NCBI GenBank assembly: GCA_964651655.1
Contig: CAZYVS010000002.1
Span: 29,471-93,470, forward strand
Source: an uncultured Candidatus Saccharibacteria bacterium
GTDB lineage: Bacteria; Patescibacteriota; Minisyncoccia; Phycocordibacterales; Zambryskibacteraceae
Length of the DNA: 64,000 nt
Direction of reading: 5' to 3'
Both the position numbers and the translations under genes were made by a program. Below the pieces are notes generated by a model. The model ran no database searches and had not been told where the DNA came from. It saw only the letters and a program-made list of their open reading frames with translations. Below, in pieces: positions 1-63,414 of this stretch (positions within the stretch are counted from its first letter, which is position 1; every line of letters starts with the position of its first letter).

Positions 1-924
1 GTCTTTTTCCCGCCTGTAGAGTCCAAACTTTTTGAATCCGATATCCGAGGCAATTTCGAAGGTGTGGGTATGGAAATAGTCGCTCAAGATGGCGCCATTA
101 CTGTTGTCGCTCCTCTCAAAAATTCCCCGGCTGACGAAGCCGGCATCATGGCAGGTGACAGAATTATCAAAATTAACAACAAAGAAACCGTCAGTCTCTC
201 TACCGAAGAAGCTGTGCAGATTATCCGAGGGCCCAAAGGCACAAAAGTGACTTTAACAATATTTAGAAACGGCATAAAAGAACCATTCGAGATAAAGGTG
301 GTCCGCGATGTCATAGATGTCCCGACTATCAATACTAAAGAATTACCGGGAGGAATCTTTGTTATTGAACTTTATAATTTCTCGGCTCAATCTCCTAACT
401 TCTTTCGTCTGGCTCTTCGTGAATTTATCCTTTCAAATAACGATAAGTTGATTCTTGATCTGCGCGGCAATCCGGGAGGATATCTGGAAGCGGCCATAGA
501 TATGGCCAGCTGGTTTCTGCCTTCCAGTAAAATAGTGGTTAAGGAAGATTTTGGCTCGTCAAAAGAAGAGAAAATCTACCGAAGCAAGGGTTATAACGTA
601 TTCAATGATAGTTTAAAAATGGTCATATTGGTAGATGGCGGATCCGCTTCCGCCTCTGAAATATTGGCCGGTGCCCTTTCTGAACACGGAATAGCCACTT
701 TAGTGGGGGATAAGACTTTTGGCAAAGGTTCCGTCCAAGAGCTCGTCAATATTACTTCGGACACATCTCTGAAAGTAACCATAGCCAGATGGCTGACTCC
801 CAATGGTTTGTCCATTTCCCAAAATGGCATTGAACCGGAATTTCTCGTAAAATACAACAGCGACAATAGGGAGGCTGGGCGCGACCCGCAACTTGAAAAG
901 GCGATTGAAATTTTAAAGCAGTGA
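1..924 (+). CDS. ctpA: C-terminal processing (tail-specific) peptidase, S41 family. Partial: the 5' end lies off the window, and the frame is open from nt 1.
   Basis: Contains a PDZ region and the S41 motif [14 protein letters not shown]. No stop occurs in this frame upstream of the ORF-track M at 64. Confidence 0.85.
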
Positions 925-1208
925 AAATAATTTTACTTAAAGATATCAAGGGAATAGGGAAGAGGTTTGAGGAAAAAAATGTTTCTGATGGCTACGCTAA
1001 TAATTTTTTAATCCCTAAGAACCTAGCGGTACCCGTCAGTCCGACTTCTTTAAACATGATTAAACAAATGAAAGAGCGGAGTGAGAAAAACAGAGCGGAA
1101 GAAGAAAAAGAAATAAATGAAAAAATATTAAAACGTAAGGAAAAACATGAGGCGCTTGAAAAGTTTAGACAGGCTAGCCTCGCCGCCGCAGAATTTAGGC
1201 GGGAATAA
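921..1208 (+). CDS. rplI: Ribosomal protein L9 (short form, N-terminal domain plus linker)
   Basis: [36 protein letters not shown] matches the L9 N-terminus. A GTG/ATG start overlaps the ctp stop. Confidence 0.8.
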
Positions 1209-1484: not shown

Positions 1485-1928
1485 ATGAGTTTACAGGATA
1501 TCTTAAATAAAATCAAGCCCCAATCTCAAGTCGAGATTGTTGAATTTAATGAGAAAGGGGAGATAGAATCTTTTCCTTTGTTTCGAAAACTTTTTTTATC
1601 CATCGTCATAATTTTGGTAGTCTCATTATCTTTTGGTATCGGACGATTATCGGTGATGGGGAAGAGGGAAGCGGTCAAAATCGAGTATGATCCAGAAATT
1701 TCTAATACCCCGCTCTTAACACCAAAGGAACAAATGGCCTCGGTTGTACAAGCGATATCCAAATCCAACAATGAGGTAATAACTTCTAAGAATGGCACCC
1801 GTTATCATTATTCGCATTGCCCAGGCGCCAAACAAATCAAAGAAGCCAATAAAATCGTTTTTGCAACACCGGCGGCGGCCGAAGCGGCCGGTTATACTCT
1901 GGCGGCCAATTGTTCACCCAAACCCTAA
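1485..1928 (+). CDS. Hypothetical membrane-anchored protein with a C-terminal Ada-like metal-binding motif
   Basis: One TM helix ([17 protein letters not shown]). The C-terminal YHYSHCPG...[11 protein letters not shown] resembles an Ada Zn-binding-like motif. Confidence 0.4.
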
Positions 1929-2192: not shown

Positions 2193-2600
2193 ATGCCTAC
2201 GATCAGTCCGGAGGTAACGGTAGAGCCGGTGCCTAAAGAAGCCAGGGCCGAAGACTATCAGCCGATTACAGATTCGAGAAACGTCGAGAAATTCATTAAT
2301 GATTATTTCGCCGACATTCCTGTTCTCGCCCAAATTGCCAAATGCGAGTCGCGCTATCGCCAATTTAACTCAAAGGGCGAAGTGCTAAGAGGAGAAAAAA
2401 ACCGCTACGACAGAGGCGTGATGCAGATCAATGTTTTGTACCATGCTCAAACTGCCGAAGAATTGGGGTTGAACCTGCAAAACATAGACGACAACGTCGC
2501 TTATGCCCGTTATCTCTATGAGAGAGAAGGCGCCAAACCTTGGATGTCTTCATCAAAGTGTTGGGCCAAGTTCAATCAATCTGAAATCGCCAGGAGTTAA
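2193..2600 (+). CDS. Lysozyme-like/transglycosylase-like domain protein (start uncertain; the upstream in-frame stretch looks like a signal peptide but has no ATG/GTG)
   Basis: The CESRYRQF...GVMQIN motif resembles SLT/lysozyme-like folds. Confidence 0.4.
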   Translation: MPTISPEVTVEPVPKEARAEDYQPITDSRNVEKFINDYFADIPVLAQIAKCESRYRQFNSKGEVLRGEKNRYDRGVMQINVLYHAQTAEELGLNLQNIDDNVAYARYLYEREGAKPWMSSSKCWAKFNQSEIARS

Positions 2601-4283: not shown

Positions 4284-5567
4284 TTAGAGAAGTGGCAGGT
4301 AGGCAAGAGGATCGAGATATGCGTCCCGGCCTTTTGCAATCGGAACAAAAACTTGCTTGCATCCGATGCTCGTCGTGAATTGTCTAATCTCCACACCTTG
4401 CGAGGCAAGAAGTCCAACATGAAGGTGCGGACCTTTAGAATATCCCGAACCATATGCGCCCGGTACTCCACCCGAATAGCCAATGATTTGTTTCGTTGTC
4501 ACCCTTTGGCCCTTTTGCACGAGCGAGGCGGAGAGATGGGCATAGATACTTGAAAGACCATTATCGTGTTTGACAAGTATCCAGCGTCCATACGAATAAC
4601 ATCCTCGCTGGTCGTCCGTATTGCCGGTACCTTCAACCACTCCGGAGAGCACAGAACGGATAGGAGTACCCATAGAAGCCCTTAAATCCAGACCGTTATG
4701 GAAACAGTCGGCGCCGCCATAAATGTTGCAATCCGACCTACCAAAACGTCCCGTAATAAAGACCTGATCCAAGGGCCAAGCAAGAATCCCCCGTTTGGGT
4801 TCCGGGAAAAGCGAAGGGTCAAGTGTGATACGCAATTCCTGTTCCAGTCTATATAGATCGGTTTCCGATTCTTTCTGCCGCGCCATGTTTTCTTGAATAA
4901 GCTTTTGATAAGCCGCTTCTTTATTTTTGGTCGCGGCCAGAAGCTTTTCTTTCGCTTTCTGATTCTCTTCCACAACCGATTTTTGGCCGCTCAACTGCCC
5001 GCGCAAACTCACTTGTTCTTCTTTAACTTTTTCTTTCTCCGCTTTTTCCTGATTGAGAATTCTGCGAGTTTCGCGCAGAGCGGAAATTTCTTCTTCCAAA
5101 CGAGTATTCAGACCGGCGAGTTGACTCCCGTCTCTCCAAATATCCGAGAGTTTGACGGAAGCCAGTAGTTGAAGTATCAATGGACGAGCGTCATATTCGG
5201 ACAAGGCCAAAATGGTGTCGGCAATGGCGGTTCGATATGTGATAATTTGTTGTTCTTTTTCGCTCATAGAATTCTCAAGCGAACGGATATTCAAATCGGT
5301 GGAAGTAATTTTCGATTGGGTAATGCTGATATCCTTGGCCAATTTCTTTTTGGTGGCGTCAAGCGATTTGACCGCGCTGCCGAGGGTCTGGCTCTCTTTA
5401 TTAATTTCATCCAGCTCGGACTGAAGCTTCTTTTGTTCTTCAACAAGCACTTCCCTATTTCTTCGAACTTTATCTATTTGTTGTTCTAATTCACTCGGAT
5501 TGGCGGCATTTAGAACAAACGGTATGATTAAAAAAATAATAAAAATGCTGATAAATCCCCCGTTCAT
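4284..5567 (-). CDS. M23-family peptidase with N-terminal coiled coil (EnvC-like murein hydrolase activator)
   Basis: Signal/TM segment, a long coiled coil, and a C-terminal LytM/M23 motif GPHLHVGL. Confidence 0.8.
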   Translation of the reverse strand: MNGGFISIFIIFLIIPFVLNAANPSELEQQIDKVRRNREVLVEEQKKLQSELDEINKESQTLGSAVKSLDATKKKLAKDISITQSKITSTDLNIRSLENSMSEKEQQIITYRTAIADTILALSEYDARPLILQLLASVKLSDIWRDGSQLAGLNTRLEEEISALRETRRILNQEKAEKEKVKEEQVSLRGQLSGQKSVVEENQKAKEKLLAATKNKEAAYQKLIQENMARQKESETDLYRLEQELRITLDPSLFPEPKRGILAWPLDQVFITGRFGRSDCNIYGGADCFHNGLDLRASMGTPIRSVLSGVVEGTGNTDDQRGCYSYGRWILVKHDNGLSSIYAHLSASLVQKGQRVTTKQIIGYSGGVPGAYGSGYSKGPHLHVGLLASQGVEIRQFTTSIGCKQVFVPIAKGRDAYLDPLAYLPLL

Positions 5568-6451
5568 TTAGTTCTTATTTTACCAAGATTGAAATGTTTC
5601 CGGTTCACCCAAGCCAGTTTTTTCTCATCAAAAATCGCACCCCCTTTATGAACTCTGGAGAAGTCAAAAACATTTATCAATTCATCAAGAGTAAAAATTT
5701 CCTGTTCCGTGCCGGGATTCCAGCCTAAAAGCGCGAGGTAATTGGTAATGGCTTCCGGCGAGTAGCCTTTACGGCGATAGTGATCAAGCGAAACCGACTC
5801 TCCGTGCTTGCGTTTGGAGAGTTTTGATCTGTCCGGAGCCAAAATCAGAGAGAGATGCGCGTACATTGGCCGCGGCGCGCCAATCGCTTCTTGGATTAAA
5901 ATTTGCCTGGGTGTGTTTGAGATGTGATCTTCGCCGCGAATGACATGTGTAATCCCCGATTCAAAATCATCGACTACAACAGCCAGATGATAAAGCGGTT
6001 CGTTAAGATTTCTGGCAATGATAAAATCTCCCAGTTCAGTGGTGTCAAACTCTACCTGACCACGAACTAAATCTTCAAAAACCACTTGTTTGTTAGGATT
6101 TCTAAAACGCACCACTTCCCTATTTTCACCTTCTATCTCCGTCGAAATATAAGCTTTGTCAGTTTGTATTAATTTATTCAAGTAAGACTTGTAAATGTCC
6201 GTGCGTTCAGACTGGTGCCAAAGCTCGCCATCCCATTCCAATTTAAGCCATTCGAGACTTTCAAAGATATCGCCTTCAAATTCTTTTTTTGATCTGGTCT
6301 TATCTGTGTCTTCCATTCTTAAAATAAATTTTCCATTATTTTTTCTAGCAAATAAAAAATTAAAAAGAGCCGTGCGCGCGCTACCAACGTGAAAACTGCC
6401 CGTCGGCGATGGCGCCATTCTTACTACTACTTTTTGATTATTGCCCGTCAT
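5564..6451 (-). CDS. Glutamyl-tRNA synthetase catalytic-domain paralog lacking the anticodon-binding domain (GluQ-like architecture)
   Basis: RMAPSPTGSFHVGSARTALFN (HIGH region), KLSKRKHG (KMSKS), VVVDDFESGITHVIRGEDH. Only 295 aa; 4-nt overlaps with murG and the M23 gene. Confidence 0.75.
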   Translation of the reverse strand: MTGNNQKVVVRMAPSPTGSFHVGSARTALFNFLFARKNNGKFILRMEDTDKTRSKKEFEGDIFESLEWLKLEWDGELWHQSERTDIYKSYLNKLIQTDKAYISTEIEGENREVVRFRNPNKQVVFEDLVRGQVEFDTTELGDFIIARNLNEPLYHLAVVVDDFESGITHVIRGEDHISNTPRQILIQEAIGAPRPMYAHLSLILAPDRSKLSKRKHGESVSLDHYRRKGYSPEAITNYLALLGWNPGTEQEIFTLDELINVFDFSRVHKGGAIFDEKKLAWVNRKHFNLGKIRTK

Positions 6452-7593
6452 TTCTCTATCTCGTGCTCAAGAGCAATTTTTAGGACCTCTTCGGCAATCA
6501 AGCGCGCGGCGTTGGGCTTATAAAATGCCTTGGCCGCCGCTTTCATTTTTTCCCGCTCCGCCTCATTTGTCATCAGACGTTCAATTTCTGACGCGAGAAT
6601 ATTGGCGGTAAGATTATTTTCTTCTATCACTTCACAAGCCCCGGCGCGAGCGTAGGCAAAAGCGTTAGAATGCTGGTCGCGGCTGACCTTCTCGTTAATC
6701 GGAATGATGATTGACGGCACACCCCAAGCCGCAATCTCAAAAATGGTTGAACCGGCGCGAGAAATGACCAAAGAAGCCACTCCGGCCGCTGTGCGCATGG
6801 TCACGACATTCAAATAATCGATGGCCTTATATCTATCTTTATGGAGTGAATCAAAAAGCACGGCTTCGCTTGTGGCTCTCACTTCAACAATATTATTCTT
6901 GCCGGCTTGATGAATAATATTGTATTTTTTCACTAGATTCTTAAGATCTTCTAAAATAACATCGTTAATTTTTTGAGCTCCTTGCGAGCCGCCAAGCACT
7001 AAAATAACGGGTGTATTTTCTTCAATCTTTAAAAACTCGCGAGCGCCGGAAGTTATCGGTATAGCTATCTCTTGGCGCACCGGCTGTCCGGTATAAGCAA
7101 CCGCATTGGGCGGGAAATATTTAGCCGCCTCCTTATAAGAAACCGCGATGATTTTGGCAAATTTACCGGCCCATAAGTTCACTCTTCCCGGGATAGTATC
7201 GGATTCGTGAATAACCACAGGAATACGCAAAAGACGCGCCGCCATTAATACCGGGAAACTCGCGTATCCTCCCTTGCCAAAAACAACGTCTGGATAAAGC
7301 TTATACACCATATAAAAAGACGAGAGAACGCCCCAGCTCGTTTTTAACAAATCCAAGAAATTCGGAAAAAAAATCAACCAGTTGGCGGAACGGCGAATTT
7401 TGCCGGCGCTATTTTTTTTATAAATAATGCCGTGTTCAAAAAGCACTCCGGGGTTATAGGGCGCGGGAGCTATATAAAAAAGCTCCAGTTCAAGAAGTTT
7501 TTTTTTCTTGGCGAGATTGTTAAGTTCTTCGGCTATGGAAACTATCGGGTAAAAATGTCCCCCGGTACCACCGCCGGTAAATAAAATGCGCAT
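6448..7593 (-). CDS. murG: UDP-GlcNAc:undecaprenyl-PP-MurNAc-pentapeptide GlcNAc transferase
   Basis: N-terminal MRILFTGGGTGGHFYPIVSIAEEL. Confidence 0.9.
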   Translation of the reverse strand: MRILFTGGGTGGHFYPIVSIAEELNNLAKKKKLLELELFYIAPAPYNPGVLFEHGIIYKKNSAGKIRRSANWLIFFPNFLDLLKTSWGVLSSFYMVYKLYPDVVFGKGGYASFPVLMAARLLRIPVVIHESDTIPGRVNLWAGKFAKIIAVSYKEAAKYFPPNAVAYTGQPVRQEIAIPITSGAREFLKIEENTPVILVLGGSQGAQKINDVILEDLKNLVKKYNIIHQAGKNNIVEVRATSEAVLFDSLHKDRYKAIDYLNVVTMRTAAGVASLVISRAGSTIFEIAAWGVPSIIIPINEKVSRDQHSNAFAYARAGACEVIEENNLTANILASEIERLMTNEAEREKMKAAAKAFYKPNAARLIAEEVLKIALEHEIEK

Positions 7594-7599
7594 TGTTTT

Positions 7600-7627
7600 T
7601 TATTTATAGTGAGCTTAGTCGAACTAA
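7600..7627 (-). promoter_or_regulatory. Conserved intercistronic motif, copy a (ftsW stop to murG start)
   Basis: Coding-strand sequence TAGTTCGACTAAGCTCACTATAAATAAAAAACA-ATG. TAG is the ftsW stop codon. Confidence 0.6.
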
Positions 7628-8733
7628 GACCCCTTGTTTTTGGAAATAGAGAGAATAATGCCCACTTCAATCAGAGTGACGAAGAGAGAGGTGCCGCCGT
7701 GACTGACAAAGGGTAAAGTAATGCCTGACAACGGAATGACCCCGAGCATGGCGCCGATATTGACGAATGCTTGGGACGTTATCATTATAACAATTCCGAT
7801 GACCGTGAGTCTAGCAAAAATATTTGTCGTCTCCGACGCAATTTTGAGGCCGCGGGCGGCAAAGAGAACAAACATTAACAGTAAAAAAACCGCGCCGACA
7901 AAACCAAACTCCTCTGCAGCGACAGCAAAAATCGAATCTCCGATCGGCTCGGGCAGATAAGTAAACTTCTGAACACTTTGGCCAAATCCACGGCCAAAGA
8001 GGCCGCCAGAACCAACCGCGATGAGGGCTTGCTGGACTTGATAGCTTGCCCCTTGGGCGTCCACTTGGGTATTTAAATATGTGGTAATGCGTTGCATGAT
8101 ATACGGCCGGGTAAAAGCCAGAAACGCTAAGCCAATACTCCCGGCCAGAATAACCATCCAGACGTAGCGCCATTTTCCCCCCGCTACGATAAACATAGCC
8201 ATGCCGGCAAAGATAATCAGAAGGAAATTATCAGTGTCAGGTTGGTTTAAAAGAAGCAGGGCCGAAATAATCAAGAGAATAAGAAGCGGTAAGAAACCCC
8301 ATCGGAAAGTTTTTATTTTCTCCTTCACTCCGGCAGCCCAAGCCGCAAAATAAATAATAAAAGCCAGCTTTAATATTTCAGAGGTCTGAAAAGAAATACC
8401 GCCAAGCACAATCCAGCGCCGAGCGCCAGCGTGTTCAAAACCGATTTCCGGCACCAATACCAAAATATTGAGGATAATAGCGGCCGCCAGAAGCCAGAAA
8501 GCGGATTTTTTCCAGAACTGAAAGTCTAAACGCGAAACAGTCGTCATCGCTATCGTGCCCAAAAATAAACCAAAAACAGTCTGTGAAAAAACAATGTTTG
8601 AATAGTTTGAATTTTCTTTTGCCAGAAGAGCGAGAGCGGCGGAACTGAAAATAAAAAAACCGGATATTATTAAAATGATGGAAATGAATAAAAACGATTT
8701 ATCAACTTTTCTGCGACTTACCATACTTACCAT
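7624..8733 (-). CDS. ftsW: SEDS-family cell division protein FtsW/RodA
   Basis: Polytopic membrane protein with SEDS motifs, located between mraY and murG. Confidence 0.85.
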   Translation of the reverse strand: MVSMVSRRKVDKSFLFISIILIISGFFIFSSAALALLAKENSNYSNIVFSQTVFGLFLGTIAMTTVSRLDFQFWKKSAFWLLAAAIILNILVLVPEIGFEHAGARRWIVLGGISFQTSEILKLAFIIYFAAWAAGVKEKIKTFRWGFLPLLILLIISALLLLNQPDTDNFLLIIFAGMAMFIVAGGKWRYVWMVILAGSIGLAFLAFTRPYIMQRITTYLNTQVDAQGASYQVQQALIAVGSGGLFGRGFGQSVQKFTYLPEPIGDSIFAVAAEEFGFVGAVFLLLMFVLFAARGLKIASETTNIFARLTVIGIVIMITSQAFVNIGAMLGVIPLSGITLPFVSHGGTSLFVTLIEVGIILSISKNKGS

Positions 8734-8735
8734 AA

Positions 8736-9782
8736 TTAACTAATGAGCGCCAGAATAACACCAGTAATGGCACTAATGACAGAGACTATCCAGTAGCGCA
8801 TCACCACTTTTTCCCTCGGCCAACCCAAAGCCTGAAAGTGGTGATGAAGAGGTGTCACTCTAAAAATTTTTCTCTTAAAAAATTTATAGAAAATGTAAAC
8901 TTGAATAATGACAGAGGCGGAAGTGGCCACCAACGGCAAGGCAATAATGGGCAAAAGAAGCACCGAATCTGTGAGAAAAGCGATGACTGAAAGCGCTACA
9001 GTCAGGGCCATCATCCCCGTCTCCCCCATATAGAAACGCGCCGGCGGCACATTGAACCATAAGAAAGCAAGGATGGCGCCGGCGATGGCGCCGGCAAGAG
9101 CGGAAATATCAATTTGATTATTGACGAAGGCAATAACGGCGAAAGCGGTAAAGACCGAAGCCAGAACTCCGCCGGCCAGGCCGTCAATACCGTCAATCAC
9201 GGAAGTTGAGAAGGTGGCCAGCATAACAATAATAAAGAAAGGTATGAACCAAATCCCTAAATACCAATCGCCGTTAAACGGAATGTGAACGGAATTAAAA
9301 TCAAGTTTATAGTAGAACCACAAACTGATAGCGAGCCCGATACCGATAACTGAAATAGTTTTAATTTTGCGGTAAATCAGAGCATCTTGAGCAAAACGAC
9401 CATGGCCGTAAATATGCACCAGATCGTCTGCCAATCCTATCAAAGCGGCCAAGAAAAAGGCCCCCAACGGCACCAGAGTTTGCGAACGGGAAAAGAAATT
9501 CAGTTTTAAGGTCAAATCGGACGGCATCATTAATGAAAGAAAATAAATGGCGCCAACGGTCAAAAGCACCGCGACCCAAATTATTATTCCGCCCACTTTT
9601 GGGACGCTAAGTTCATGTTCTGTATTATGAATATTTTTAAAAGCCTCGGAAGTGCCGGCGTTCGTCCTGGGCGACTTTTTCCACATTTTGTACCGATAAA
9701 AATATCTGGTAAAAAAAGGAGTAATAAGAACACCTATAAAAAAGGTAAGAACCGTTGGTAAAATGATTTTTAGAATATCCAT
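8736..9782 (-). CDS. mraY: Phospho-N-acetylmuramoyl-pentapeptide transferase
   Basis: GLADDL and IDGIDGLAGG motifs. Confidence 0.9.
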   Translation of the reverse strand: MDILKIILPTVLTFFIGVLITPFFTRYFYRYKMWKKSPRTNAGTSEAFKNIHNTEHELSVPKVGGIIIWVAVLLTVGAIYFLSLMMPSDLTLKLNFFSRSQTLVPLGAFFLAALIGLADDLVHIYGHGRFAQDALIYRKIKTISVIGIGLAISLWFYYKLDFNSVHIPFNGDWYLGIWFIPFFIIVMLATFSTSVIDGIDGLAGGVLASVFTAFAVIAFVNNQIDISALAGAIAGAILAFLWFNVPPARFYMGETGMMALTVALSVIAFLTDSVLLLPIIALPLVATSASVIIQVYIFYKFFKRKIFRVTPLHHHFQALGWPREKVVMRYWIVSVISAITGVILALIS

Positions 9783-11599
9783 TATGGTTTCTGGCCGGCA
9801 ATAAAGACATTGTACCAGATTGCCAACACCAAAAGGAGATAGATTTTCCTCGAATTATCATCGCGGCCGGAGAGATGATGATTGATAAGATTATTTATAT
9901 ACGGGATATTCATATGTTTTTGAATATATGGATTTTCCAGAATGGTATTATAAATGTCTTTGTTATTACCGGTAAACCAATCTCTGACCGGCGTCGGGAA
10001 ACCGAGTTTCTTCCTCCGACGCACCGACTTTGGCAATATTTGTTTGAACGCCTCACGCAAGAGATATTTGGTAACCCCGCGTTTCCATTTAAATCTATCT
10101 GGAAAACTTGAAACCAGGCGCGCCACTTCGATATCCAGAAATGGCACTCTCAATTCAAGCGAATGCGCCATGGTCATTTTGTCCGCTTTAGCCAAAATAT
10201 CTCCCACAAGCCAAGTGTGAATATCAATGTACTGCATCTTGGTAGAATCGCTGAAATATGGCGCTCTGGCGTAGATATCACCGATAGAAAATTTTTTCTC
10301 TAACTTTTCTTTCCAAAGAAATTTAACTTCAGCGTTACTAAAAATAGAAGCGTTGCCGATATACCAGTCTTCAAGTTTCTGACTTGCTCTGGTGGCATAA
10401 TTTTTACCTCTAAAATTAAAAGGTAAATTGCTAATAAATTTCAAAATAATATTGGGTATCCAAGAGATCCATCGACGGGCAAATGGCTCCAGATAAATAT
10501 TGTAACCGCCAAAGAGTTCGTCAGCACCTTCGCCGGAGAGCACCACTTTGACATGTTTGGCCGCTTCTCGAGCCAAAAAATACAATCCGAGAGCTGAAGG
10601 ATCGGCTACAGGCTCATCAAAGTGCCATATCGCCTTGGGTAGATTGACAAAATATTCTTGCGCGCCAATAATAATTTCACGATGGTCGGTATTAAGCCAG
10701 TTGACGGTTTCTAACGCTTCCCTACCCTCGCTTAGAGATTCAAAACCAACGGTAAAAGTTTTAATTTTTTGTCCCGATTTTGTTCTCAAAAGTGTCGTAA
10801 CGATGCTCGAATCTATGCCGCCTGAAAGAAAGGCGCCGACGGGCACATCGGCAATCATATGGTGGGAAACGGAATCCTCCATCGTCTCAAAAATTTTTTT
10901 CTTAGTCTCTTTTTCATTCAATAAATCATTCGGCTGAAATTCAAATTTCCAATATCGTTTTATATCCATCTCGCCGGTCTTGGCGTTTATTTGCATCCAG
11001 TGAGCCGGCGGGAGTTTAAAAATGTTTTTGAAGAAAGTTTCTTCCAAAGGATTATATTGAAACGAAAGATAGTTAAAAATCGCCGCGTCATTTGCTTCCG
11101 GCCTGAAATCAGGCAAGGCAATAAAACTTTTTATTTCTGAAGAGAAAGCGGTGACTTGATTTCCTTTTTTCCAATAATATAGCGGTTTGATGCCAAAGAA
11201 ATCTCGCGCGATAAAAATCTTCTTATCTCTGGTATCGTAGATAGAGAAAGCAAACATACCGCGCAGATGCGGCAAAACCTCTTCTCCCCACTTTAGAAAT
11301 CCGGCTAAAATTACTTCGGTATCGCTATCAGTTTTAAACTTGTAATCGCTCAATGCACTTTTTATCTCCCTGTAATTATAAATTTCTCCATTGAAAATAA
11401 TCACCCACCGGCCATCACTGGAGACAATTGGCTGCCGGCCTCCGGCCAGATCAATGATGGAGAGTCGTCTCATTCCTAAAGCGACATAGTCATCGGAAAA
11501 AAATCCTGCATCATCCGGTCCGCGATGAAAAATGGCCTCGGTCATGTTTTGAATGCGGTCTCTTTCTTTCGGTTTGATTATTCCCGCTATGCCACACAT
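9782..11599 (-). CDS. asnB: Asparagine synthetase (glutamine-hydrolysing) family amidotransferase
   Basis: N-terminal MCGIAGI nucleophile and SGGIDSS PP-loop. Embedded in the peptidoglycan operon. Confidence 0.85.
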   Translation of the reverse strand: MCGIAGIIKPKERDRIQNMTEAIFHRGPDDAGFFSDDYVALGMRRLSIIDLAGGRQPIVSSDGRWVIIFNGEIYNYREIKSALSDYKFKTDSDTEVILAGFLKWGEEVLPHLRGMFAFSIYDTRDKKIFIARDFFGIKPLYYWKKGNQVTAFSSEIKSFIALPDFRPEANDAAIFNYLSFQYNPLEETFFKNIFKLPPAHWMQINAKTGEMDIKRYWKFEFQPNDLLNEKETKKKIFETMEDSVSHHMIADVPVGAFLSGGIDSSIVTTLLRTKSGQKIKTFTVGFESLSEGREALETVNWLNTDHREIIIGAQEYFVNLPKAIWHFDEPVADPSALGLYFLAREAAKHVKVVLSGEGADELFGGYNIYLEPFARRWISWIPNIILKFISNLPFNFRGKNYATRASQKLEDWYIGNASIFSNAEVKFLWKEKLEKKFSIGDIYARAPYFSDSTKMQYIDIHTWLVGDILAKADKMTMAHSLELRVPFLDIEVARLVSSFPDRFKWKRGVTKYLLREAFKQILPKSVRRRKKLGFPTPVRDWFTGNNKDIYNTILENPYIQKHMNIPYINNLINHHLSGRDDNSRKIYLLLVLAIWYNVFIAGQKP

Positions 11600-13867: not shown

Positions 13868-14452
13868 TCAGGTCTGATATCCAAGCAAAATATTAACTAT
13901 CTCGTCCCATGAATAAACTCTGCGAATAGGTGGTTTAACTTCACCTTGATTCCACGGCGCATCAAGGAGCAAGGCAGGTATACCGACACTAGCCACATCT
14001 TCCACATTATGCAGTGAATCGTCCACAAAAAATTCAATGCCTAAATTTTTACAAACTTCTCCCTTTGAACACTTTGGTCCATCTCCCTGAAAATGATTTG
14101 TAAAACGAACTCCGTCAAACATTTTTGGAAAATGTTTATCCAACCATTCTATTGTTCTGTTTTTCAATTCTTCAGGTTTAGCTGTAATTACATACAAATC
14201 GTGGTACCGTTTTAATTCCTTAATGCTTTCAACCGCTCCGTCTACTGGCAAAGCATTTAAATGTGCAAGGGAGGAGTAAAAATCAGACACTCTTTGTATT
14301 GCCTCTTCTCTTGTACAGCTCCACATTCCTTGTAGTTCATATGATTGTCTATGCCTCCTTTCGTGCTTTGTACCATAATTCATATTATGATAATGAAGAA
14401 GAATATCATTAAAATTTAACAACACATCATCAAGGTCAAAACCGATAGTCAT
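13868..14452 (-). CDS. 5'(3')-deoxyribonucleotidase-like HAD phosphatase
   Basis: N-terminal FDLDDVL (HAD motif I), NT5C-like. Confidence 0.6.
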   Translation of the reverse strand: MTIGFDLDDVLLNFNDILLHYHNMNYGTKHERRHRQSYELQGMWSCTREEAIQRVSDFYSSLAHLNALPVDGAVESIKELKRYHDLYVITAKPEELKNRTIEWLDKHFPKMFDGVRFTNHFQGDGPKCSKGEVCKNLGIEFFVDDSLHNVEDVASVGIPALLLDAPWNQGEVKPPIRRVYSWDEIVNILLGYQT

Positions 14453-15726
14453 GGGTTCAGTCTCTTAACGTCTCTTGGCAAATACGTGGCTTCGCGGACA
14501 TTTGGCAAGTCAATAATTTTCATAATAAAGCGACCTGGCCCAATGCCGGCCCCGCCATGCGGCGGACAGCCATAACGGAAGAAGTTTAAATAATCCTTCA
14601 GCAACTCAAGGTCCATATTTTTCTCTCTGGCCTGTTTTTCCAAAATTTCTACTCGGTGCTCGCGTTGAGCCAGAGTCGTGATTTCAATTCCTCGATAAAG
14701 CAAATCCGCTCTTCGACTTCTATCAGAATCCTCATCTAAACGCATATGGTAGAAAGCACTCTTGGATTTGTGATAATCAGTGATAAAGACAAATTCATGT
14801 TCGTGTTCTTTGAGAATATATTCCGAAATGGCCCGCTCTTCTTCCGGTGAAAGATCGTGCTCATCGGGCGAAGAAATACCAAGACTAGATAAAATCTTTT
14901 TTGTTTCCACTATTGTTATTCTTGGAAATGGTCGGGTTGGTATGGTGATATTTAAATCCGGAAAAGTTTTCAATAATTGTTCAAATCCACTGACAATCAT
15001 CCCCTCTTCTTCATCCATGACATCATAGTGGTCCTTGATGTAGGAAACCTCAAAATCCCAACCGGTAAATTCCGTAAGATGACGAGTGGTGAAAGACGGC
15101 TCGGCGCGAAACACGGGAGACACCATGAAAACCTTTTCGAAACCGGATGCCATAGCCATCTGCTTGTAAAACTGCGGTGACTGCGCCAGATACGCCTTGC
15201 GGTCGAAATAATTGACTTCAAAAACTTCCGCGCCAGATTCCGACGGTACAGACATCAGGGCCGGTGGATAGAGTTGGATGAAATTATTCTCGTCCCAATA
15301 TTTGCGCCAGCCCTTCTCAAATTCCGTCCAGACTTTGAAAATTTTTGCCTTCTCCGGTTTACGCAAATCAAGCCAACGATAATCAAAACGTATAGGCGCT
15401 TCCGTCTCCCCGCCCGAACGTGCCGAACCACGTTCGGTACGGGCGGGTTCTCCACTCTTAACCACAACCGGTATCGGTAATTCCGGTTCCGCCCGGCTCA
15501 ACACCTCAATCTTAATCGGATGCATTTCATGGCCACCGGGCGCCTGCGGAGCATCTATCATTTCCCCGGTCGCTCTGATAACCGACTCAAGTGTCAAATT
15601 CTTAGCGGCTTCAAATTCCGGATTATCCGTCGTCACCACCAGTTGAGTCAGGCCTTGTAAGTTACGAACAATAATAAAAATTATTTTCGATTGAACGCGC
15701 AAAGCATGTATAAACCCTTGAATCAT
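14449..15726 (-). CDS. aspS: Aspartyl-tRNA synthetase, archaeal/eukaryal type (class IIb)
   Basis: Motif 2 FRAEPSFTTRHLTEFTGWDFE matches the FRAEDSNTHRHLTEF type. Motif 3 is GGAGIGPGR. N-terminal OB fold; about 425 aa. Confidence 0.8.
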   Translation of the reverse strand: MIQGFIHALRVQSKIIFIIVRNLQGLTQLVVTTDNPEFEAAKNLTLESVIRATGEMIDAPQAPGGHEMHPIKIEVLSRAEPELPIPVVVKSGEPARTERGSARSGGETEAPIRFDYRWLDLRKPEKAKIFKVWTEFEKGWRKYWDENNFIQLYPPALMSVPSESGAEVFEVNYFDRKAYLAQSPQFYKQMAMASGFEKVFMVSPVFRAEPSFTTRHLTEFTGWDFEVSYIKDHYDVMDEEEGMIVSGFEQLLKTFPDLNITIPTRPFPRITIVETKKILSSLGISSPDEHDLSPEEERAISEYILKEHEHEFVFITDYHKSKSAFYHMRLDEDSDRSRRADLLYRGIEITTLAQREHRVEILEKQAREKNMDLELLKDYLNFFRYGCPPHGGAGIGPGRFIMKIIDLPNVREATYLPRDVKRLNP

Positions 15727-18362: not shown

Positions 18363-18440
18363 ACGCCATTAATTATATTGGGGTTCGTTAGAATAGTCTA
18401 GTATATGTATAATTACTCAAAAATCTGCTATAATTTCGGT

Positions 18441-19481
18441 ATGCGAAAATCAAAAACAACAAAGAAATTTCTATCTAGGCCGGTAGAACATATAGATATT
18501 AAAAAACTTGATCTCACGAAGACAGTAAAAGCCATGTCTAAAATGTCCTTTTCTGCGAGAGATGCAGCCAACGCAGCAGAAATGTATGCTCGAATGGTTA
18601 AAGATAATGATTGCGTTAATATTTTAACACTTGCTGGTAGTACCAGTGCAGCTGGTTGTATGCAAATTTATACAGACATGGTAAGACACAAAATGATTGA
18701 TGTGGTCGTAGCCACGGGTGCAAGTATTGTAGATATGGATTTTTTTGAAGCATTAGGATTTAAACATTACCAAGGCAGCCCCATTGTCGACGACAAAATG
18801 TTACGTAGTTTATATATCGACAGAATTTATGACACGTACATCAATGAAAACGATCTGCAGAAATGCGATGCGGCAATTATGGAAATTGCTAACGGCCTGA
18901 AAACACATCCTTATTCATCACAAGAATTTATAAGAGAAATGGGCAGATATTTGACAAAACGTTCAAAAAAAGACGACTCTCTTATACAAGCCGCGTTCGA
19001 AATGGGTGTTCCAATATTTTGCCCGGCGTTCTCAGACAGCAGTGCCGGTTTTGGTCTCGTAATGCATCAAGTAAAAAATCCGAGAGACCATGTTTCTATT
19101 GATTCGGTCAAAGATTTCTATCAGCTGACCCAAATAAAAATCAAAGCTAAAAATACAGGTTTGCTCATGATAGGTGGAGGAGTGCCCAAAAACTTCGCTC
19201 AAGATACTGTGGTGTGCGCTGAAGTGTTGGGACACAATGTTCCCATGCATAAGTACGCTATACAAATAACTGTTGCCGATGTCAGAGATGGCGCATGTTC
19301 TAGTTCCACCTTAAGAGAAGCTAACTCCTGGGGTAAGGTTGATAGCTTATCAGAACAAATGGTGTATGCGGAAGCGACTACAGTATTACCAATGATTGCC
19401 AGTTATGTATATCACCAAAAAGATTGGAAAAGGCGAACAAAAAAAGATTTTAACTCTGTATTAATAAAATTGTCCAGTTAA
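18441..19481 (+). CDS. Deoxyhypusine synthase-like (DHS family) protein
   Basis: VVATGASIVDMDFFEALGFKHYQG matches the DHS family core. An extended -10 (TGCTATAAT) sits 6 nt before the ATG (leaderless). Confidence 0.6.
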   Translation: MRKSKTTKKFLSRPVEHIDIKKLDLTKTVKAMSKMSFSARDAANAAEMYARMVKDNDCVNILTLAGSTSAAGCMQIYTDMVRHKMIDVVVATGASIVDMDFFEALGFKHYQGSPIVDDKMLRSLYIDRIYDTYINENDLQKCDAAIMEIANGLKTHPYSSQEFIREMGRYLTKRSKKDDSLIQAAFEMGVPIFCPAFSDSSAGFGLVMHQVKNPRDHVSIDSVKDFYQLTQIKIKAKNTGLLMIGGGVPKNFAQDTVVCAEVLGHNVPMHKYAIQITVADVRDGACSSSTLREANSWGKVDSLSEQMVYAEATTVLPMIASYVYHQKDWKRRTKKDFNSVLIKLSS

Positions 19482-21321: not shown

Positions 21322-21720
21322 TTAATCGTTAGCTATAGCTAAAACTCTCTTAAGGTAATTACCCTTTAAGTGGTGATCACCCTTAACTTCTAAATATTCA
21401 GCTCTTAATTTTTTGGCCATTTGTTTTGCATATTTTTTCATATGTGTATGTTCTCGATTACCATTTAAGACAAAGATATGACCCTTAGGTTGTTTATATC
21501 TTTGAACTATAGGTGGCGGAGAACATAGAATTAGTTTTTTTATAGGAGACTTATATGCTATCAAATAAGCTAAAACAGCTCCAATAGAAAACCCTATCAA
21601 GACAGAATCTTTAGGTAATTTAGGTAAATTAAAAACATCATCAATAGTAAGATGAAGATAGTACACATATTTAGGGAGTTTATATTTCTTCTCTCCCAAG
21701 CCGGGAATAATGTAAATCAT
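21322..21720 (-). CDS. Alpha/beta-hydrolase-like fragment (probably truncated)
   Basis: GFSIGA (GxSxG) and a C-terminal DHH. The likely start MIYIIPG sits directly after a terminator hairpin. Confidence 0.35.
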   Translation of the reverse strand: MIYIIPGLGEKKYKLPKYVYYLHLTIDDVFNLPKLPKDSVLIGFSIGAVLAYLIAYKSPIKKLILCSPPPIVQRYKQPKGHIFVLNGNREHTHMKKYAKQMAKKLRAEYLEVKGDHHLKGNYLKRVLAIAND

Positions 21721-21724
21721 ATTT

Positions 21725-21760
21725 GTAAAGAAAAGGAGGGGCTTTGTAGAGCCCCTCCCT
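21725..21760 (-). terminator. Terminator hairpin after the DUF397-like gene
   Basis: GGAGGGGC-N8-GCCCCTCC followed on the minus strand by TTTTCTTT. Confidence 0.5.
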
Positions 21761-21766
21761 TCCGCC

Positions 21767-21988
21767 TCACGTGAGACGTATGTCGACAGGGCCAATGGGG
21801 TTAAATTCTCCTTTCTTTACCCCATTAAGGAACGCTTGCCATTCATTGTTGTTGAAATGAAGAGTTGGACCATTAGGATCTTTGGAAGATCTAACAGCCA
21901 CGCCATTTTCATTGCGAGCAACCGCCACGCACCAGCAGCCCCATTTTTGGCTGTCATCTGCAACGTGGAAATCCTTATCTTCGAACAT
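21767..21988 (-). CDS. DUF397-like small protein
   Basis: WGCWCVAVA...VAVRSSKDPNGPTLHFNNNEWQAFLNGVKKGEF matches the DUF397 pattern (actinobacterial family). SD AGGAGGTGA lies 9 nt before the ATG. Confidence 0.6.
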   Translation of the reverse strand: MFEDKDFHVADDSQKWGCWCVAVARNENGVAVRSSKDPNGPTLHFNNNEWQAFLNGVKKGEFNPIGPVDIRLT

Positions 21989-22994: not shown

Positions 22995-23067
22995 GGGCTC
23001 ATAGTAAAGTGGTATTACACGGCATTCGCATTGCCGAGTCCCGGGTTCAATCCCCGGTGAGTCCACC
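22995..23067 (+). tRNA. tRNA-Ala (anticodon CGC)
   Basis: Manual fold: acceptor GGGCTCA/TGAGTCC with G3:U70, D stem GTAA/TTAC, anticodon stem CGGCA/TGCCG, loop TTCGCAT, T arm CCGGG-TTCAATC-CCCGG, discriminator A. Confidence 0.85.
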
Positions 23068-26822: not shown

Positions 26823-27167
26823 GGCTTTTATGTTCAAATTCTTCATCATTTTGGCGCGTAATTTATTTTTCGGAAGCATACCGTATATTGCCCGACGCAA
26901 TACTTCTTGGGGCCCTTTCGTTTTGACTATATACTCTTGAGATCGTCTTTTGAGATTTCCTGGAAAACCGGAGTGACTGAAATAGCTTTTAGCTTTTAGC
27001 TTCTTAGCTTCTAGCTTCATGGATCCGGTATTCATAACTTCAACCAAGATATCTGGAATACGGTTTCTGGCGAAATCTGTTCTATTTTTACCCATCAGAA
27101 ACACGGCCGCTTCCGTTGCGACCCGGCCCGGCACTCTGCCTTTTGCGTCTATAATATGTTTTTTCAT
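26820..27167 (-). CDS. rplM: Ribosomal protein L13
   Basis: L13 family sequence. Confidence 0.9.
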   Translation of the reverse strand: MKKHIIDAKGRVPGRVATEAAVFLMGKNRTDFARNRIPDILVEVMNTGSMKLEAKKLKAKSYFSHSGFPGNLKRRSQEYIVKTKGPQEVLRRAIYGMLPKNKLRAKMMKNLNIKA

Positions 27168-27189
27168 TTATAGTGAGTTTATCGAACTA
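27166..27189 (-). promoter_or_regulatory. Conserved intercistronic motif, copy c (rplQ stop to rplM start; overlaps the ATG)
   Basis: Coding-strand TAGTTCGATAAACTCACTATAAATG. Confidence 0.6.
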
Positions 27190-27534
27190 TACAAATTCTA
27201 TAATCGCCATGGGACTGGCATCCGTCATCCGCGGTCCCATTTTAATGATACGAGTATAACCTCCGGTTCTATCTTTATACGCCACGGAGAGTTTCTCTGC
27301 AATCTTTTTTGCCGCCGCCGGGCCAATTCGACTTTCCAGAAGACGGCGAGAGGCGATAGTCTGCTTTTTACCCAAAGTAATAAGTTTCTCCATAAAAGGA
27401 CGAAGCGATTGGGCCTTGGGTTCTGTGGTTTTAATTTTATCCTTTAGAGTCAGCGAGCGAGCCAAAGATTTGAGCAAAGCATTTCTTTGATTTTTTTCAC
27501 GGCCAAATTTTCTATTAGCATTATGATGTCGCAT
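27187..27534 (-). CDS. rplQ: Ribosomal protein L17
   Basis: L17 family sequence. Confidence 0.9.
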   Translation of the reverse strand: MRHHNANRKFGREKNQRNALLKSLARSLTLKDKIKTTEPKAQSLRPFMEKLITLGKKQTIASRRLLESRIGPAAAKKIAEKLSVAYKDRTGGYTRIIKMGPRMTDASPMAIIEFV

Positions 27535-31770: not shown

Positions 31771-31796
31771 TTATTTATAGTGAGCTTGTCGAATTA
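31771..31796 (-). promoter_or_regulatory. Conserved intercistronic motif, copy e (alaS stop to the hypothetical gene)
   Basis: Coding-strand TAATTCGACAAGCTCACTATAAATAA, then a second TTATAAT 7 nt before the ATG. Confidence 0.55.
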
Positions 31797-33068: not shown

Positions 33069-33086
33069 TAGATGAATATAACACAA

Positions 33087-51040: not shown

Positions 51041-51116
51041 TGGTGGACCGTGGGAGATTCGAACTCCCGACCTCCACATTGCAAATGTGGCGCTCTACCA
51101 ACTAAGCTAACGGCCC
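51041..51116 (-). tRNA. tRNA-Ala (anticodon TGC), with CCA encoded
   Basis: Reverse complement: GGGCCGT-TA-GCTTAGTTGGTAGAGC-G-CCACA-TTTGCAA-TGTGG-AGGTC-GGGAG-TTCGAAT-CTCCC-ACGGTCC-A-CCA, with G3:U70. Confidence 0.85.
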
Positions 51117-51267: not shown

Positions 51268-51268
51268 C

Positions 51269-63386: not shown

Positions 63387-63414
63387 ATTCGTATACAATG
63401 GCCTATTCGCACTT

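What the first reader, a model, noticed from the sequence alone, without database searches (positions are those of the whole stretch)
5564..6451. GluRS catalytic-domain-only paralog translationally coupled inside the mraY-ftsW-murG-EnvC operon
The 295-aa protein has the HIGH and KMSKS motifs and aligns to GluRS residues 1 to about 320. It lacks the anticodon-binding domain. This is the domain architecture of Glu-Q-RS, which glutamylates queuosine on tRNA-Asp. A tgt gene is present at 60260-61498, which is consistent with queuosine metabolism. The gene overlaps murG and the M23 peptidase gene by 4 nt (ATGA) at each end, so it is co-expressed with cell-wall genes. It could alternatively be an aminoacyl donor for a cell-wall modification.
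Basis: partly seen in the sequence, partly recalled or inferred. Interest (0 to 1): 0.55.

Follow-up and report, generated by a model that had tools for sequence, protein, structure and literature searches.

The report
GluRS lacking its anticodon-binding domain
This gene is the ordinary glutamyl-tRNA synthetase gene of a group of ultra-small groundwater bacteria (Parcubacteria), in its usual place in the cell-wall operon, but it has lost the whole domain that normally reads the tRNA anticodon. It is not a queuosine-modifying paralog.

Summary
A 295-aa ORF (5564..6451, minus strand) has HIGH (HVGS) and KMSKS (KLSKR) motifs, only the class-I E/Q catalytic domain, and ATGA overlaps with murG and an M23/EnvC-like peptidase gene. 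The interpretation as a Glu-Q-RS-type paralog does not hold. The protein passes NCBI's gltX equivalog cutoff and fails all five GluQRS models. It is 49% identical to E. coli GltX and 33% to GluQ, and its AlphaFold model matches 42 GluRS chains before any GluQRS. In 80 Parcubacteria species the order murG-gltX-M23 is conserved whether gltX is full-length (385-533 aa, with anticodon-binding domain) or truncated (285-323 aa), so the window gene is the positional ortholog of the housekeeping gltX. Truncation at the same domain boundary arose at least twice. Both clades are under strong purifying selection (dN/dS 0.05-0.12) and show no rate acceleration. I found no anticodon-binding domain coding sequence in the window or near any truncated locus. 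AlaRS in the same genomes has also lost its editing domain. The most likely reading is a natural minimal GluRS that charges tRNA without reading the anticodon. I could not test whether another GluRS exists elsewhere in the genome.

The parts
5564..6451 (-). gltX ortholog encoding a 295-aa GluRS. It has the Rossmann catalytic fold, a shortened connective peptide, the stem-contact domain and an 8-residue basic tail (NLGKIRTK). It has no anticodon-binding domain.
6448..6451 (-). ATGA overlap of the murG stop codon and the gltX start codon
5564..5567 (-). ATGA overlap of the gltX stop codon and the M23 peptidase start codon. It leaves no room for a downstream ABD remnant.
6448..7593 (-). murG (381 aa), the conserved upstream neighbour of gltX in this class
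4284..5567 (-). M23 peptidase with an N-terminal coiled coil (EnvC-like, 427 aa), the conserved downstream neighbour
7624..8733 (-). ftsW/rodA family gene
8736..9782 (-). mraY (Glycos_transf_4)
9782..11599 (-). Glutamine-hydrolysing asparagine synthase (asnB-like), at the head of the conserved cluster in close relatives
31794..33086 (-). AlaRS catalytic core only (430 aa, no editing domain). This is a parallel distal-domain loss in the same genome and supports a reductive-evolution reading.
It is real, but no other queuosine gene is in the window.

Best explanation
The gene is the housekeeping gltX of a Zambryskibacteria-like member of the Parcubacteria (Patescibacteria/CPR). A deletion has removed the entire alpha-helical anticodon-binding domain, GluRS domains 4-5.

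What remains is the Rossmann catalytic fold, a connective peptide already shortened in the whole class, and the stem-contact domain. The protein ends about 8 residues after the W-V-N-x-x-H motif in a short Lys/Arg-rich tail.

I propose that it still works as a glutamyl-tRNA synthetase for translation. It would bind the acceptor stem and the augmented D-helix of tRNA-Glu with domains 1-3, activate glutamate on the tRNA-bound enzyme, and esterify A76. It would never contact the anticodon. Without anticodon reading it would probably also charge tRNA-Gln as a non-discriminating enzyme feeding GatCAB. It is probably the only GluRS of the cell.

Shown: domain content, family assignment, positional orthology, recurrent loss, purifying selection, and parallel loss of the AlaRS editing domain.

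Inferred: catalytic activity, tRNA substrates, sole-copy status, and non-discrimination.
For: 1. Family. gltX_bact TIGR00464 scores 386.7 bits against a cutoff of 289.95, although only model positions up to 317 of 470 can match. All GluQRS models fall below their cutoffs. The best PDB sequence hits are T. maritima GluRS1/2 at 264-267 bits, against 113 bits for YadB. Identity is 49% to E. coli GltX and 33% to GluQ.

2. Structure. The AF2 model has pLDDT 92.5 and pTM 0.90. The top 42 Foldseek hits are bacterial GluRS chains.

3. Positional orthology. murG lies upstream in 78 of 80 GTDB species loci and M23 downstream in 74 of 80. This holds for truncated (285-323 aa), partial-ABD (385-412 aa) and full (426-533 aa) forms alike. 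Metagenome contigs with 429-aa and 393-aa forms show the same order.

4. One locus per assembly. The 80 best loci come from 80 different assemblies down to 56% identity. No truncated-type assembly shows a second family member.

5. Not decay. 75 of the 120 best 90%-identity clusters are truncated and share the same end. dN/dS is 0.05-0.12 in both clades. Distance to E. coli GltX is the same for truncated and full-length forms, 0.501 vs 0.515. Only 2 clade-specific residue changes were found.

6. Recurrent loss. Clade B is monophyletic in 100 of 100 bootstraps. Clades A and B are never monophyletic together (0 of 100). Clade A groups with full-length forms to the exclusion of B in 95 of 100. Both clades end at the same domain boundary.

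7. No ABD in cis or nearby.

8. Apparent free-standing ABDs are artefacts. All 3 checked on long contigs are frameshift fragments in error-prone assemblies.

9. Same trend in other translation parts. AlaRS is core-only in the window, and also on the same contig as the truncated GluRS P0002. Ribosomal protein L9 has only its N-domain.

10. Precedent. A C-truncated E. coli GluRS stays specific for tRNA-Glu (Dubois et al. 2009, as cited and summarised in PMC2777447). E. coli tRNA-Glu has major determinants in the D-arm (PMC9976931).

11. tRNA features. A Parcubacteria tRNA-Glu(UUC) carries U11-A24, U13-G22, A46 and a 4-nt variable loop (my reading of the sequence).
Against: - I could not test whether another GluRS exists elsewhere in the genome, for example a divergent or archaeal-type one acquired by transfer. 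Only 64 kb of the genome was available, and the single genome-collection scan finds close relatives only.
- In E. coli the anticodon bases U34, U35, C36 and A37 are strong identity determinants. By my recollection of Dubois 2009, the engineered truncated enzyme is far less efficient, so a sole ABD-less GluRS would need compensation.
- No compensating charge gain is evident. Net charge of the core is -2.6 in truncated forms and -4.0 in full-length forms.
- No tRNA-Glu, tRNA-Gln or gatCAB from a truncated-type genome could be examined.
- A Tgt gene is present, so a Q34-related role is not excluded by the absence of the queuosine pathway.
Confidence: 0.6

Rival explanations
1. It is a functional analogue of Glu-Q-RS that arose by convergence. 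After a second GluRS took over translation, the truncated gltX was re-purposed to glutamylate queuosine (or another nucleoside) in the anticodon loop of tRNA-Asp.
For: It has the same gross architecture as YadB, a catalytic core without ABD. A genuine tgt is in the window. GluQRS is the only characterised natural ABD-less GluRS relative (PMC3927822).
Against: - It scores below all five GluQRS model cutoffs.
- It lacks the Cys-rich segment present in E. coli GluQ.
- It shows no rate acceleration and only 2 clade-specific substitutions relative to full-length orthologs.
- It is the positional ortholog of gltX.
- No second family member was seen in any truncated-type assembly.
- No queA, queG or queH is in the window. 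The ORF next to tgt is mreB.
- The parallel AlaRS truncation argues for general domain shedding rather than a specific new function.
Confidence: 0.12
2. It is still the translational GluRS but works as a two-piece enzyme. Anticodon or core tRNA binding would be supplied in trans by a separately encoded ABD or by another tRNA-binding partner, such as GatCAB in a transamidosome or a YqeY/Trbp-like protein.
For: Free ABD stimulates C-truncated E. coli GluRS in trans (the title of Dubois 2009, cited). Many PF19269-only proteins appear in the ABD profile search.
Against: - The three PF19269-only proteins checked on long contigs are frameshift fragments lying directly after a catalytic fragment at the murG locus, in assemblies where ftsW and murG are also broken.
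- No ABD-like sequence occurs within 10 kb of 15 truncated loci or in the 64 kb window.
- No recognisable tRNA-binding accessory protein was found among the annotated window ORFs.
Confidence: 0.13
3. It is an aminoacyl donor, or a Glu-AMP or Glu-tRNA supplier, for a cell-wall modification. This would explain why it sits between murG and the M23 peptidase.
For: The junctions are tight ATGA overlaps. The linkage to mraY-ftsW-murG is conserved in 78 of 80 species.
Against: The same linkage holds for full-length, ABD-containing gltX across the class, so it is not specific to the truncated form. No Fem-type or other aminoacyl-tRNA transferase was detected in the window. Operons that mix unrelated genes are common in compact genomes (general knowledge).
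Confidence: 0.05
4. It is an inactive remnant (pseudogene) on its way out.
For: An entire functional domain is missing.
Against: dN/dS is 0.05-0.12. There are 75 distinct truncated clusters with intact ORFs and identical ends, from independent assemblies. All catalytic motifs are invariant. The model is confident.
Confidence: 0.03

Closest known systems
Bacterial glutamyl-tRNA synthetase (GltX; e.g. T. maritima GluRS1/2, T. elongatus non-discriminating GluRS, E. coli GltX)
   Same: It has the same catalytic core, HIGH and KMSKS motifs and stem-contact domain. Identity is 42-49%. The TM-score is 0.84-0.90 over the whole query. It passes the gltX equivalog model. It sits at the same genomic locus as full-length orthologs.
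   Different: The alpha-helical anticodon-binding domain (PF19269, about 150 aa) is missing entirely. About 30 aa of the Cys-rich connective-peptide insertion are also missing, but the full-length Parcubacteria forms lack that segment too.
Glu-Q-RS / YadB (glutamyl-queuosine tRNA-Asp synthetase)
   Same: It is a catalytic core without ABD, of similar length (295 vs 308 aa).
   Different: Identity is only 33%. It scores below all GluQRS HMM cutoffs and ranks 43-44 in the fold search. The window protein keeps GluRS-type domain-3 motifs (GYxPEAxxNYLALLGW...FDxxKLxWxN) that GluQ lacks. It lacks the C-x-C...C segment of GluQ. It is an ortholog of gltX, not a paralog.
Engineered C-truncated E. coli GluRS (Dubois, Blais, Huot and Lapointe, Biochemistry 2009; also Dasgupta et al., FEBS Lett 2009)
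   Same: It has the same cut point at the boundary between the catalytic half and the ABD. The engineered enzyme remains specific for tRNA-Glu (as summarised in PMC2777447).
   Different: That protein is a laboratory construct with reduced efficiency, and it coexists with no natural counterpart. Here the truncation is natural, fixed and conserved across many species, and it arose at least twice.
H. pylori GluRS2
   Same: Its tRNA selection rests on acceptor-stem elements, which makes the ABD 'useless' for discrimination (PMC2777447).
   Different: GluRS2 still carries an ABD and is a second copy dedicated to tRNA-Gln.
small-AlaRS / mini-AlaRS (bioRxiv 10.1101/2023.05.29.542759)
   Same: It is a precedent for CPR and viral aaRS that shed distal domains. 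The window's own AlaRS goes further and keeps the core only.
   Different: It is a different enzyme. It is relevant only as a parallel trend.

Membership tests
Bacterial GluRS (GltX) | Class I catalytic core with HIGH and KMSKS motifs and the Glu/ATP-binding residues | tested here: met
   HVGS at 21-24 and KLSKR at 210-214. R11, S15, E47, Y154, D161-D162 and R172 are invariant or nearly invariant across GltX, GluQ and 68 relatives.
Bacterial GluRS (GltX) | Scores above the curated equivalog model for gltX | tested here: met
   TIGR00464 scores 386.7 bits against a cutoff of 289.95, with the match ending at model position 317 of 470.
Bacterial GluRS (GltX) | C-terminal alpha-helical anticodon-binding domain (PF19269) | tested here: not met
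   No PF19269 hit. No ABD-like sequence in any frame in the window.
Bacterial GluRS (GltX) | Orthology to the housekeeping gene (same locus and same clade as full-length gltX of relatives) | tested here: met
   murG-gltX-M23 is conserved in 74-78 of 80 species. Identity to full-length forms is 72-82%.
Bacterial GluRS (GltX) | [quoted passage not shown] | not testable with these tools
   This needs an aminoacylation assay or complementation.
Glu-Q-RS (YadB/GluQ) | Scores above the curated GluQRS models | tested here: not met
   NF004314 scores 221.7 (cutoff 256), TIGR03838 216.9 (276.7), NF004315 209 (250), NF004313 160.8 (380) and NF004312 140.4 (453).
Glu-Q-RS (YadB/GluQ) | Catalytic core without anticodon-binding domain | tested here: met
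Glu-Q-RS (YadB/GluQ) | Cys-rich (zinc-binding, from my memory of the YadB structure papers) segment in the connective peptide | tested here: not met
   There is a 29-31 residue gap in the window protein where E. coli GluQ has CTCTRARIQSI...GHCR.
Glu-Q-RS (YadB/GluQ) | Paralog that coexists with a canonical GluRS in the same genome | not testable with these tools
   Only 64 kb of the genome was available. No second copy is in the window or among the 80 best GTDB loci. A divergent copy elsewhere cannot be excluded.
Glu-Q-RS (YadB/GluQ) | Substrate present: queuosine at position 34 of tRNA-Asp (needs tgt plus queA plus queG/H) | tested here: inconclusive
   tgt is present. No queA, queG or queH is in the window. 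The rest of the genome was not seen.

The most novel reading that the evidence does not exclude
A whole branch of Parcubacteria decodes Glu codons, and Gln codons through GatCAB, with a synthetase that never touches the anticodon. tRNA identity would rest on the acceptor stem and D-arm alone. This would be a living version of the hypothesised 'proto-GluRS'. The state evolved at least twice and may have spread by recombination of the 3' gene module. It would be part of a coordinated stripping of distal domains from the translation apparatus, including AlaRS without its editing domain and L9 without its C-domain. That implies either relaxed fidelity or unknown trans-acting factors.
Probability: 0.5. 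Interest if true: 0.75.

Novelty: new variant of a known kind. Interest (0 to 1): 0.6.

Why it matters
GluRS is a textbook case of an aminoacyl-tRNA synthetase whose tRNA selection depends strongly on the anticodon. The idea that the ancestral enzyme was the catalytic half alone has so far been tested only with engineered E. coli truncations.

A natural ABD-less ortholog that is conserved and has evolved repeatedly would provide a ready-made experimental system. [quoted passage not shown] It could also show how far reductive evolution can pare the translation machinery in CPR bacteria.

There is a practical consequence for annotation. These proteins should not be transferred to the GluQRS family on domain architecture alone. 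NCBI currently calls them 'glutamate--tRNA ligase family protein'.

Tried and rejected
- **Frameshift or split gene in cis: rejected.** The next gene starts within the stop codon. tblastn with 42 ABD queries finds nothing in the window or within 10 kb of 15 truncated loci.
- **Free-standing ABD genes: no support.** A profile search returned many PF19269-only proteins. The three checked on long contigs are frameshift fragments in assemblies where neighbouring genes are also broken. Most others sit on 1-3 kb contigs, so they are probably partial genes.
- **tRNA genes near gltX: uninformative.** I scanned 60 related loci for tRNA-Glu, tRNA-Gln and tRNA-Asp. I found one tRNA-Glu, and it comes from a genome with a full-length gltX. 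The window holds only three tRNA-Ala genes.
- **Second GluRS in the same genome: not resolved.** It cannot detect a divergent second copy.
- **Literature: nothing found.** Five full-text searches found no description of an ABD-less GluRS ortholog in CPR or Patescibacteria. The AARS Online classification does not list one. Dubois 2009 itself is not held.
- **The 442-aa ORF after the AlaRS core as the missing AlaRS half: rejected.** It has no similarity to the AlaRS C-terminal profile and carries a predicted membrane helix.
- **Compensatory gain of positive charge in the truncated core: not seen**.
- **The first NJ tree rooted on E. coli** was too poorly resolved to read an order of events. I replaced it with a bootstrap test of specific splits.
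Full report
**1. The observation**

The window holds an ORF at 5564..6451 on the minus strand that encodes 295 aa. Its start codon overlaps the stop codon of the upstream ORF 6448..7593 in the tetranucleotide ATGA. Its stop codon overlaps the start of the downstream ORF 4284..5567 in the same way.

Pfam assigns the three ORFs as follows:
- the upstream ORF is MurG (PF03033 plus PF04101);
- the 295-aa ORF has the class-I Glu/Gln catalytic domain only (PF00749, E 1.1e-88);
- the downstream ORF is an M23 peptidase with an N-terminal coiled coil.

FtsW, MraY and an AsnB-type amidotransferase lie further upstream. HIGH is HVGS and KMSKS is KLSKR. Alignment to solved GluRS structures stops at T. thermophilus residue ~318. 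That is the 322/323 boundary between the catalytic and anticodon-binding halves used in the GluRS literature (PMC3927822). The ORF at 60260..61498 is a genuine bacterial Tgt.

**2. Which family**

The protein reaches 386.7 bits on NCBI's gltX_bact equivalog model (cutoff 289.95) although a third of the model cannot match. It stays below the cutoff of all five GluQRS models.

Against PDB sequences it scores 264-267 bits to T. maritima GluRS1/2 and 113 bits to E. coli YadB. Using E. coli genes fetched as references, it is 49% identical to GltX and 33% to GluQ.

The alignment also shows that it keeps the GluRS-type stem-contact domain up to the W-x-N-x-x-H motif. GluQ has diverged beyond recognition in that region. 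The window protein lacks the Cys-rich segment that both E. coli proteins carry.

An AlphaFold2 model built on 68 homologs is confident (pLDDT 92.5, pTM 0.90). Its 42 best Foldseek matches in the PDB are bacterial GluRS chains (TM 0.84-0.90). GluQRS comes at ranks 43-44 (TM 0.73-0.79). By every membership test I could run, this is a GluRS without an anticodon-binding domain (ABD), not a member of the GluQRS family.

**3. Relatives and synteny**

The protein belongs to a large Patescibacteria/Parcubacteria family. Among the best 120 clusters, 75 are 276-311 aa with PF00749 only. The other 45 are 393-458 aa with PF00749 plus the PF19269 ABD, at 71-76% identity.

Contigs carrying a 429-aa form (on a 507 kb contig), a 393-aa form and a 292-aa form all show the same gene order: asnB-mraY-(ftsW)-murG-gltX-M23.

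A scan of one genome per GTDB species returned 80 loci from 80 different assemblies, at 56-80% identity. In these loci:
- murG lies directly upstream in 78 and the M23 gene directly downstream in 74; several of the exceptions are cut by a contig end;
- the gltX ORF is 285-323 aa in 11, 385-412 aa in 3, and 426-533 aa in nearly all the rest.

The window gene is therefore the positional ortholog of the lineage's ordinary gltX. Its place in the cell-wall cluster is a class-wide property of gltX and is not a feature of the truncated form. This removes the basis for calling it a paralog. It also removes most of the basis for a cell-wall-specific role.

**4. How the truncated forms evolved**

*Clade A.* All close relatives of the window protein end in the same way...KGGAIFDEKKLAWVNRKHFN followed by a 6-8 residue Lys/Arg-rich tail. 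The tail of some members (HFNKLLTG) lines up with the natural continuation in full-length forms (HVKLLSPE). This suggests that the coding sequence was simply cut a few codons into the ABD (inference).

*Clade B.* A second group (L036, L049, L071, L085) ends ...KLNWLNRQYLKKK... at the same boundary. It is only ~62% identical to clade A and 67-69% to its nearest full-length relatives.

*Bootstrap test.* In 100 NJ bootstraps clade B is monophyletic 100 times. Clades A and B together are never monophyletic. Clade A groups with some full-length sequences to the exclusion of clade B 95 times. The ABD was therefore lost at least twice.

*Mosaicism.* Clade A itself is recovered as monophyletic in only 16 of 100 replicates. 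Segment-wise identities explain this:
- The last 58 residues are of a shared 'truncated type' in all clade A members (81-93% to each other, 64-78% to full-length forms).
- The first 60 residues of L004 are 91% identical to the full-length L003.
- The first 60 residues of the window protein are 84% identical to L012 but only 61% to L004.

The genes are mosaics. Recombination between lineages may have moved the ABD-less 3' module around. This is an inference and was not formally tested.

*Gradual erosion.* The 385-412 aa forms lack roughly the first 55 residues of the ABD and keep the strongly conserved C-terminal GKGNVLWPLRYALSGKEKSPDPFTL module. The family therefore shows a series of about 456, 430, 393-412 and 285-296 aa.

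**5. Is it functional?**

Where synonymous sites are not saturated, dN/dS is 0.05-0.08 in clade A and 0.07-0.12 in clade B.

Truncated and full-length forms are equally distant from E. coli GltX (p-distance 0.501 vs 0.515). Neither is closer to GluQ (0.666 vs 0.659). Only two positions, 231 and 285, distinguish the groups consistently.

There is no sign of decay and no sign of the rate acceleration expected after a change of function.

**6. Is the ABD supplied from elsewhere?**

- tblastn with 42 ABD sequences found nothing at E<=1 in the 64 kb window or within 10 kb of 15 truncated loci, apart from three noise hits at E 0.2-0.7.
- No second GluRS, GluQRS or ABD homolog is in the window.
- A profile of ten Parcubacteria ABDs retrieved many short PF19269-only proteins.
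- The three I inspected on long contigs lie immediately after a catalytic-domain fragment at the murG locus. They come from assemblies in which ftsW, murG and the M23 gene are also broken into pieces, so they are indel artefacts.

I found no genuine free-standing ABD. The test is not exhaustive.

**7. What I could not test**

I could not determine whether a divergent second GluRS is encoded elsewhere in these genomes. One possibility is an archaeal-type enzyme. This lineage already uses an archaeal-type non-discriminating AspRS, and CPR bacteria use the archaeal GlyRS. The tools give no access to whole assemblies, and the single genome-collection scan finds close relatives only.

**8. Context that bears on the mechanism**

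The same genome carries an AlaRS of 430 aa that matches only positions 1-429 of the 847-position alaS model and has no editing domain.

Its relatives split in the same way as GluRS. Most are ~580 aa with the PF07973 editing domain. A subset is 396-435 aa without it. One such AlaRS core (P0395) lies on the very contig that carries the truncated GluRS P0002.

The ORF downstream of the AlaRS core is a conserved membrane protein and is not the missing half. Ribosomal protein L9 is reduced to its N-domain here and in relatives.

The organism is thus shedding distal RNA-binding and proofreading domains from several translation components. This favours the view that the GluRS core is the working enzyme rather than a re-purposed spare.

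Experimental precedent exists. The truncated catalytic half of E. coli GluRS still prefers tRNA-Glu over tRNA-Gln (Dubois et al. 2009, as summarised in PMC2777447). H. pylori GluRS2 selects its tRNA through the acceptor stem. [quoted passage not shown]

The one Parcubacteria tRNA-Glu I could retrieve has exactly these features. It comes from a genome with a full-length gltX, so it is only indirect support.

The window also encodes MnmA, the U34 thiolase for tRNA-Glu, tRNA-Gln and tRNA-Lys.

**9. Most likely mechanism**

The 295-aa enzyme binds the acceptor arm and D-arm of tRNA-Glu through domains 1-3. It activates glutamate in the tRNA-bound state, as all GluRS do (established knowledge). It then transfers glutamate to A76.

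Without an ABD it cannot read position 36. It would therefore also charge tRNA-Gln, consistent with an indirect GatCAB route. That route is inferred from the non-discriminating AspRS. I did not see GatCAB itself.

The basic tail may add non-specific RNA affinity (speculation).

I put 0.6 on this reading. The rivals are:
- 0.12 on a convergent GluQRS-like modifier backed by another GluRS;
- 0.13 on a two-piece enzyme with a trans-acting tRNA-binding partner;
- 0.05 on a cell-wall-related role;
- 0.03 on a dead gene.

**10. Novelty and verdict**

Five literature searches and the AARS Online classification gave no description of a natural ABD-less GluRS ortholog. Public annotation only calls these proteins 'glutamate--tRNA ligase family protein'.

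This is a new variant of a known kind. It is interesting to aaRS and CPR specialists because it offers a natural test of the 'catalytic core first' hypothesis and of anticodon-independent Glu/Gln identity.

Noticed in passing
window 31794..33086 (-); relatives P0391-P0510; L093 5001..6275: AlaRS is a 430-aa catalytic core with no editing (PF07973) or C-Ala domain. It scores just below the alaS equivalog cutoff (429.9 vs 457). Most Parcubacteria relatives are ~580 aa with the editing domain. A subset of 396-435 aa lacks it, including one on the same contig as a truncated GluRS.
   Followed up: partly
window 30427..31755 (-); L093 6291..7616: A conserved 442-aa orphan ORF lies immediately downstream of the AlaRS core. 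It is 65% identical in a relative and has no Pfam, NCBIfam or PDB hit. It has a predicted N-terminal membrane helix. It is not the missing AlaRS half.
   Followed up: partly
window 921..1208 (+); L004 15720..16028; L006 15951..16217; compare L003 18124..18570: Ribosomal protein L9 has only its N-terminal domain (88-102 aa) in the window and in two relatives. The relative with the 429-aa GluRS has both domains (148 aa).
   Followed up: partly
80 loci L010-L089; window 4284..11599: gltX is embedded between murG and an EnvC-like M23 peptidase gene in essentially every sampled Parcubacteria species, down to 56% identity. This class-wide linkage of an aaRS gene to the division/cell-wall cluster is unexplained.
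   Followed up: partly
window 5564..6451 vs L004, L012, L003: The gltX genes are mosaics. The N-terminal 60 residues and the C-terminal 58 residues have different nearest relatives. This suggests homologous recombination between lineages, possibly spreading the ABD-less 3' module.
   Followed up: partly
L036, L049, L071, L085: A second clade of ABD-less GluRS appears to be independent. Its members end ...WLNRQYLKKK..., with L085 at 323 aa. L085 also has a 40-residue GluRS N-terminal fragment about 800 nt upstream (5026..5145).
   Followed up: partly
window 14449..15726 (-): AspRS is the archaeal-type non-discriminating aspartate--tRNA(Asn) ligase (NF003483, 412 bits, cutoff 353). This implies an indirect Asn pathway, yet a glutamine-hydrolysing asparagine synthase is also present at 9782..11599.
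   Followed up: no
window 18405..19481 (+): There is a strong deoxyhypusine synthase homolog (PF01916, E 2e-94) in a bacterial genome. It is on the opposite strand to almost all its neighbours.
   Followed up: no
window 22995..23067 (+), 51041..51116 (-), 51195..51268 (+): The only tRNA genes in 64 kb are three tRNA-Ala genes covering anticodons CGC, UGC and GGC. They are in the same window as the core-only AlaRS.
   Followed up: no
window 39603..41810 (-): LeuRS is only 735 aa, and its editing-domain match is split into two short stretches. It may be another slimmed-down synthetase.
   Followed up: no
L090, L091 (ENA ERZ1286166), L092 (JGI 3300056827): Long contigs from these assemblies have many genes broken by frameshifts (ftsW, murG, gltX, M23). 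The protein databases therefore contain spurious 'stand-alone' anticodon-binding-domain proteins.
   Followed up: yes
window 60260..62529 (-): tgt is directly followed by mreB with a 1-nt overlap, not by queA. No other queuosine-pathway gene is in the window.
   Followed up: partly
window 37243..38508 (-), 50310..50909 (-), 2193..2600 (+), 1485..1928 (+), 21322..21795 (-), 27019..27447 (+), 63303..63698 (-): Several ORFs of 131-421 aa have no Pfam family at E<=0.001.
   Followed up: no
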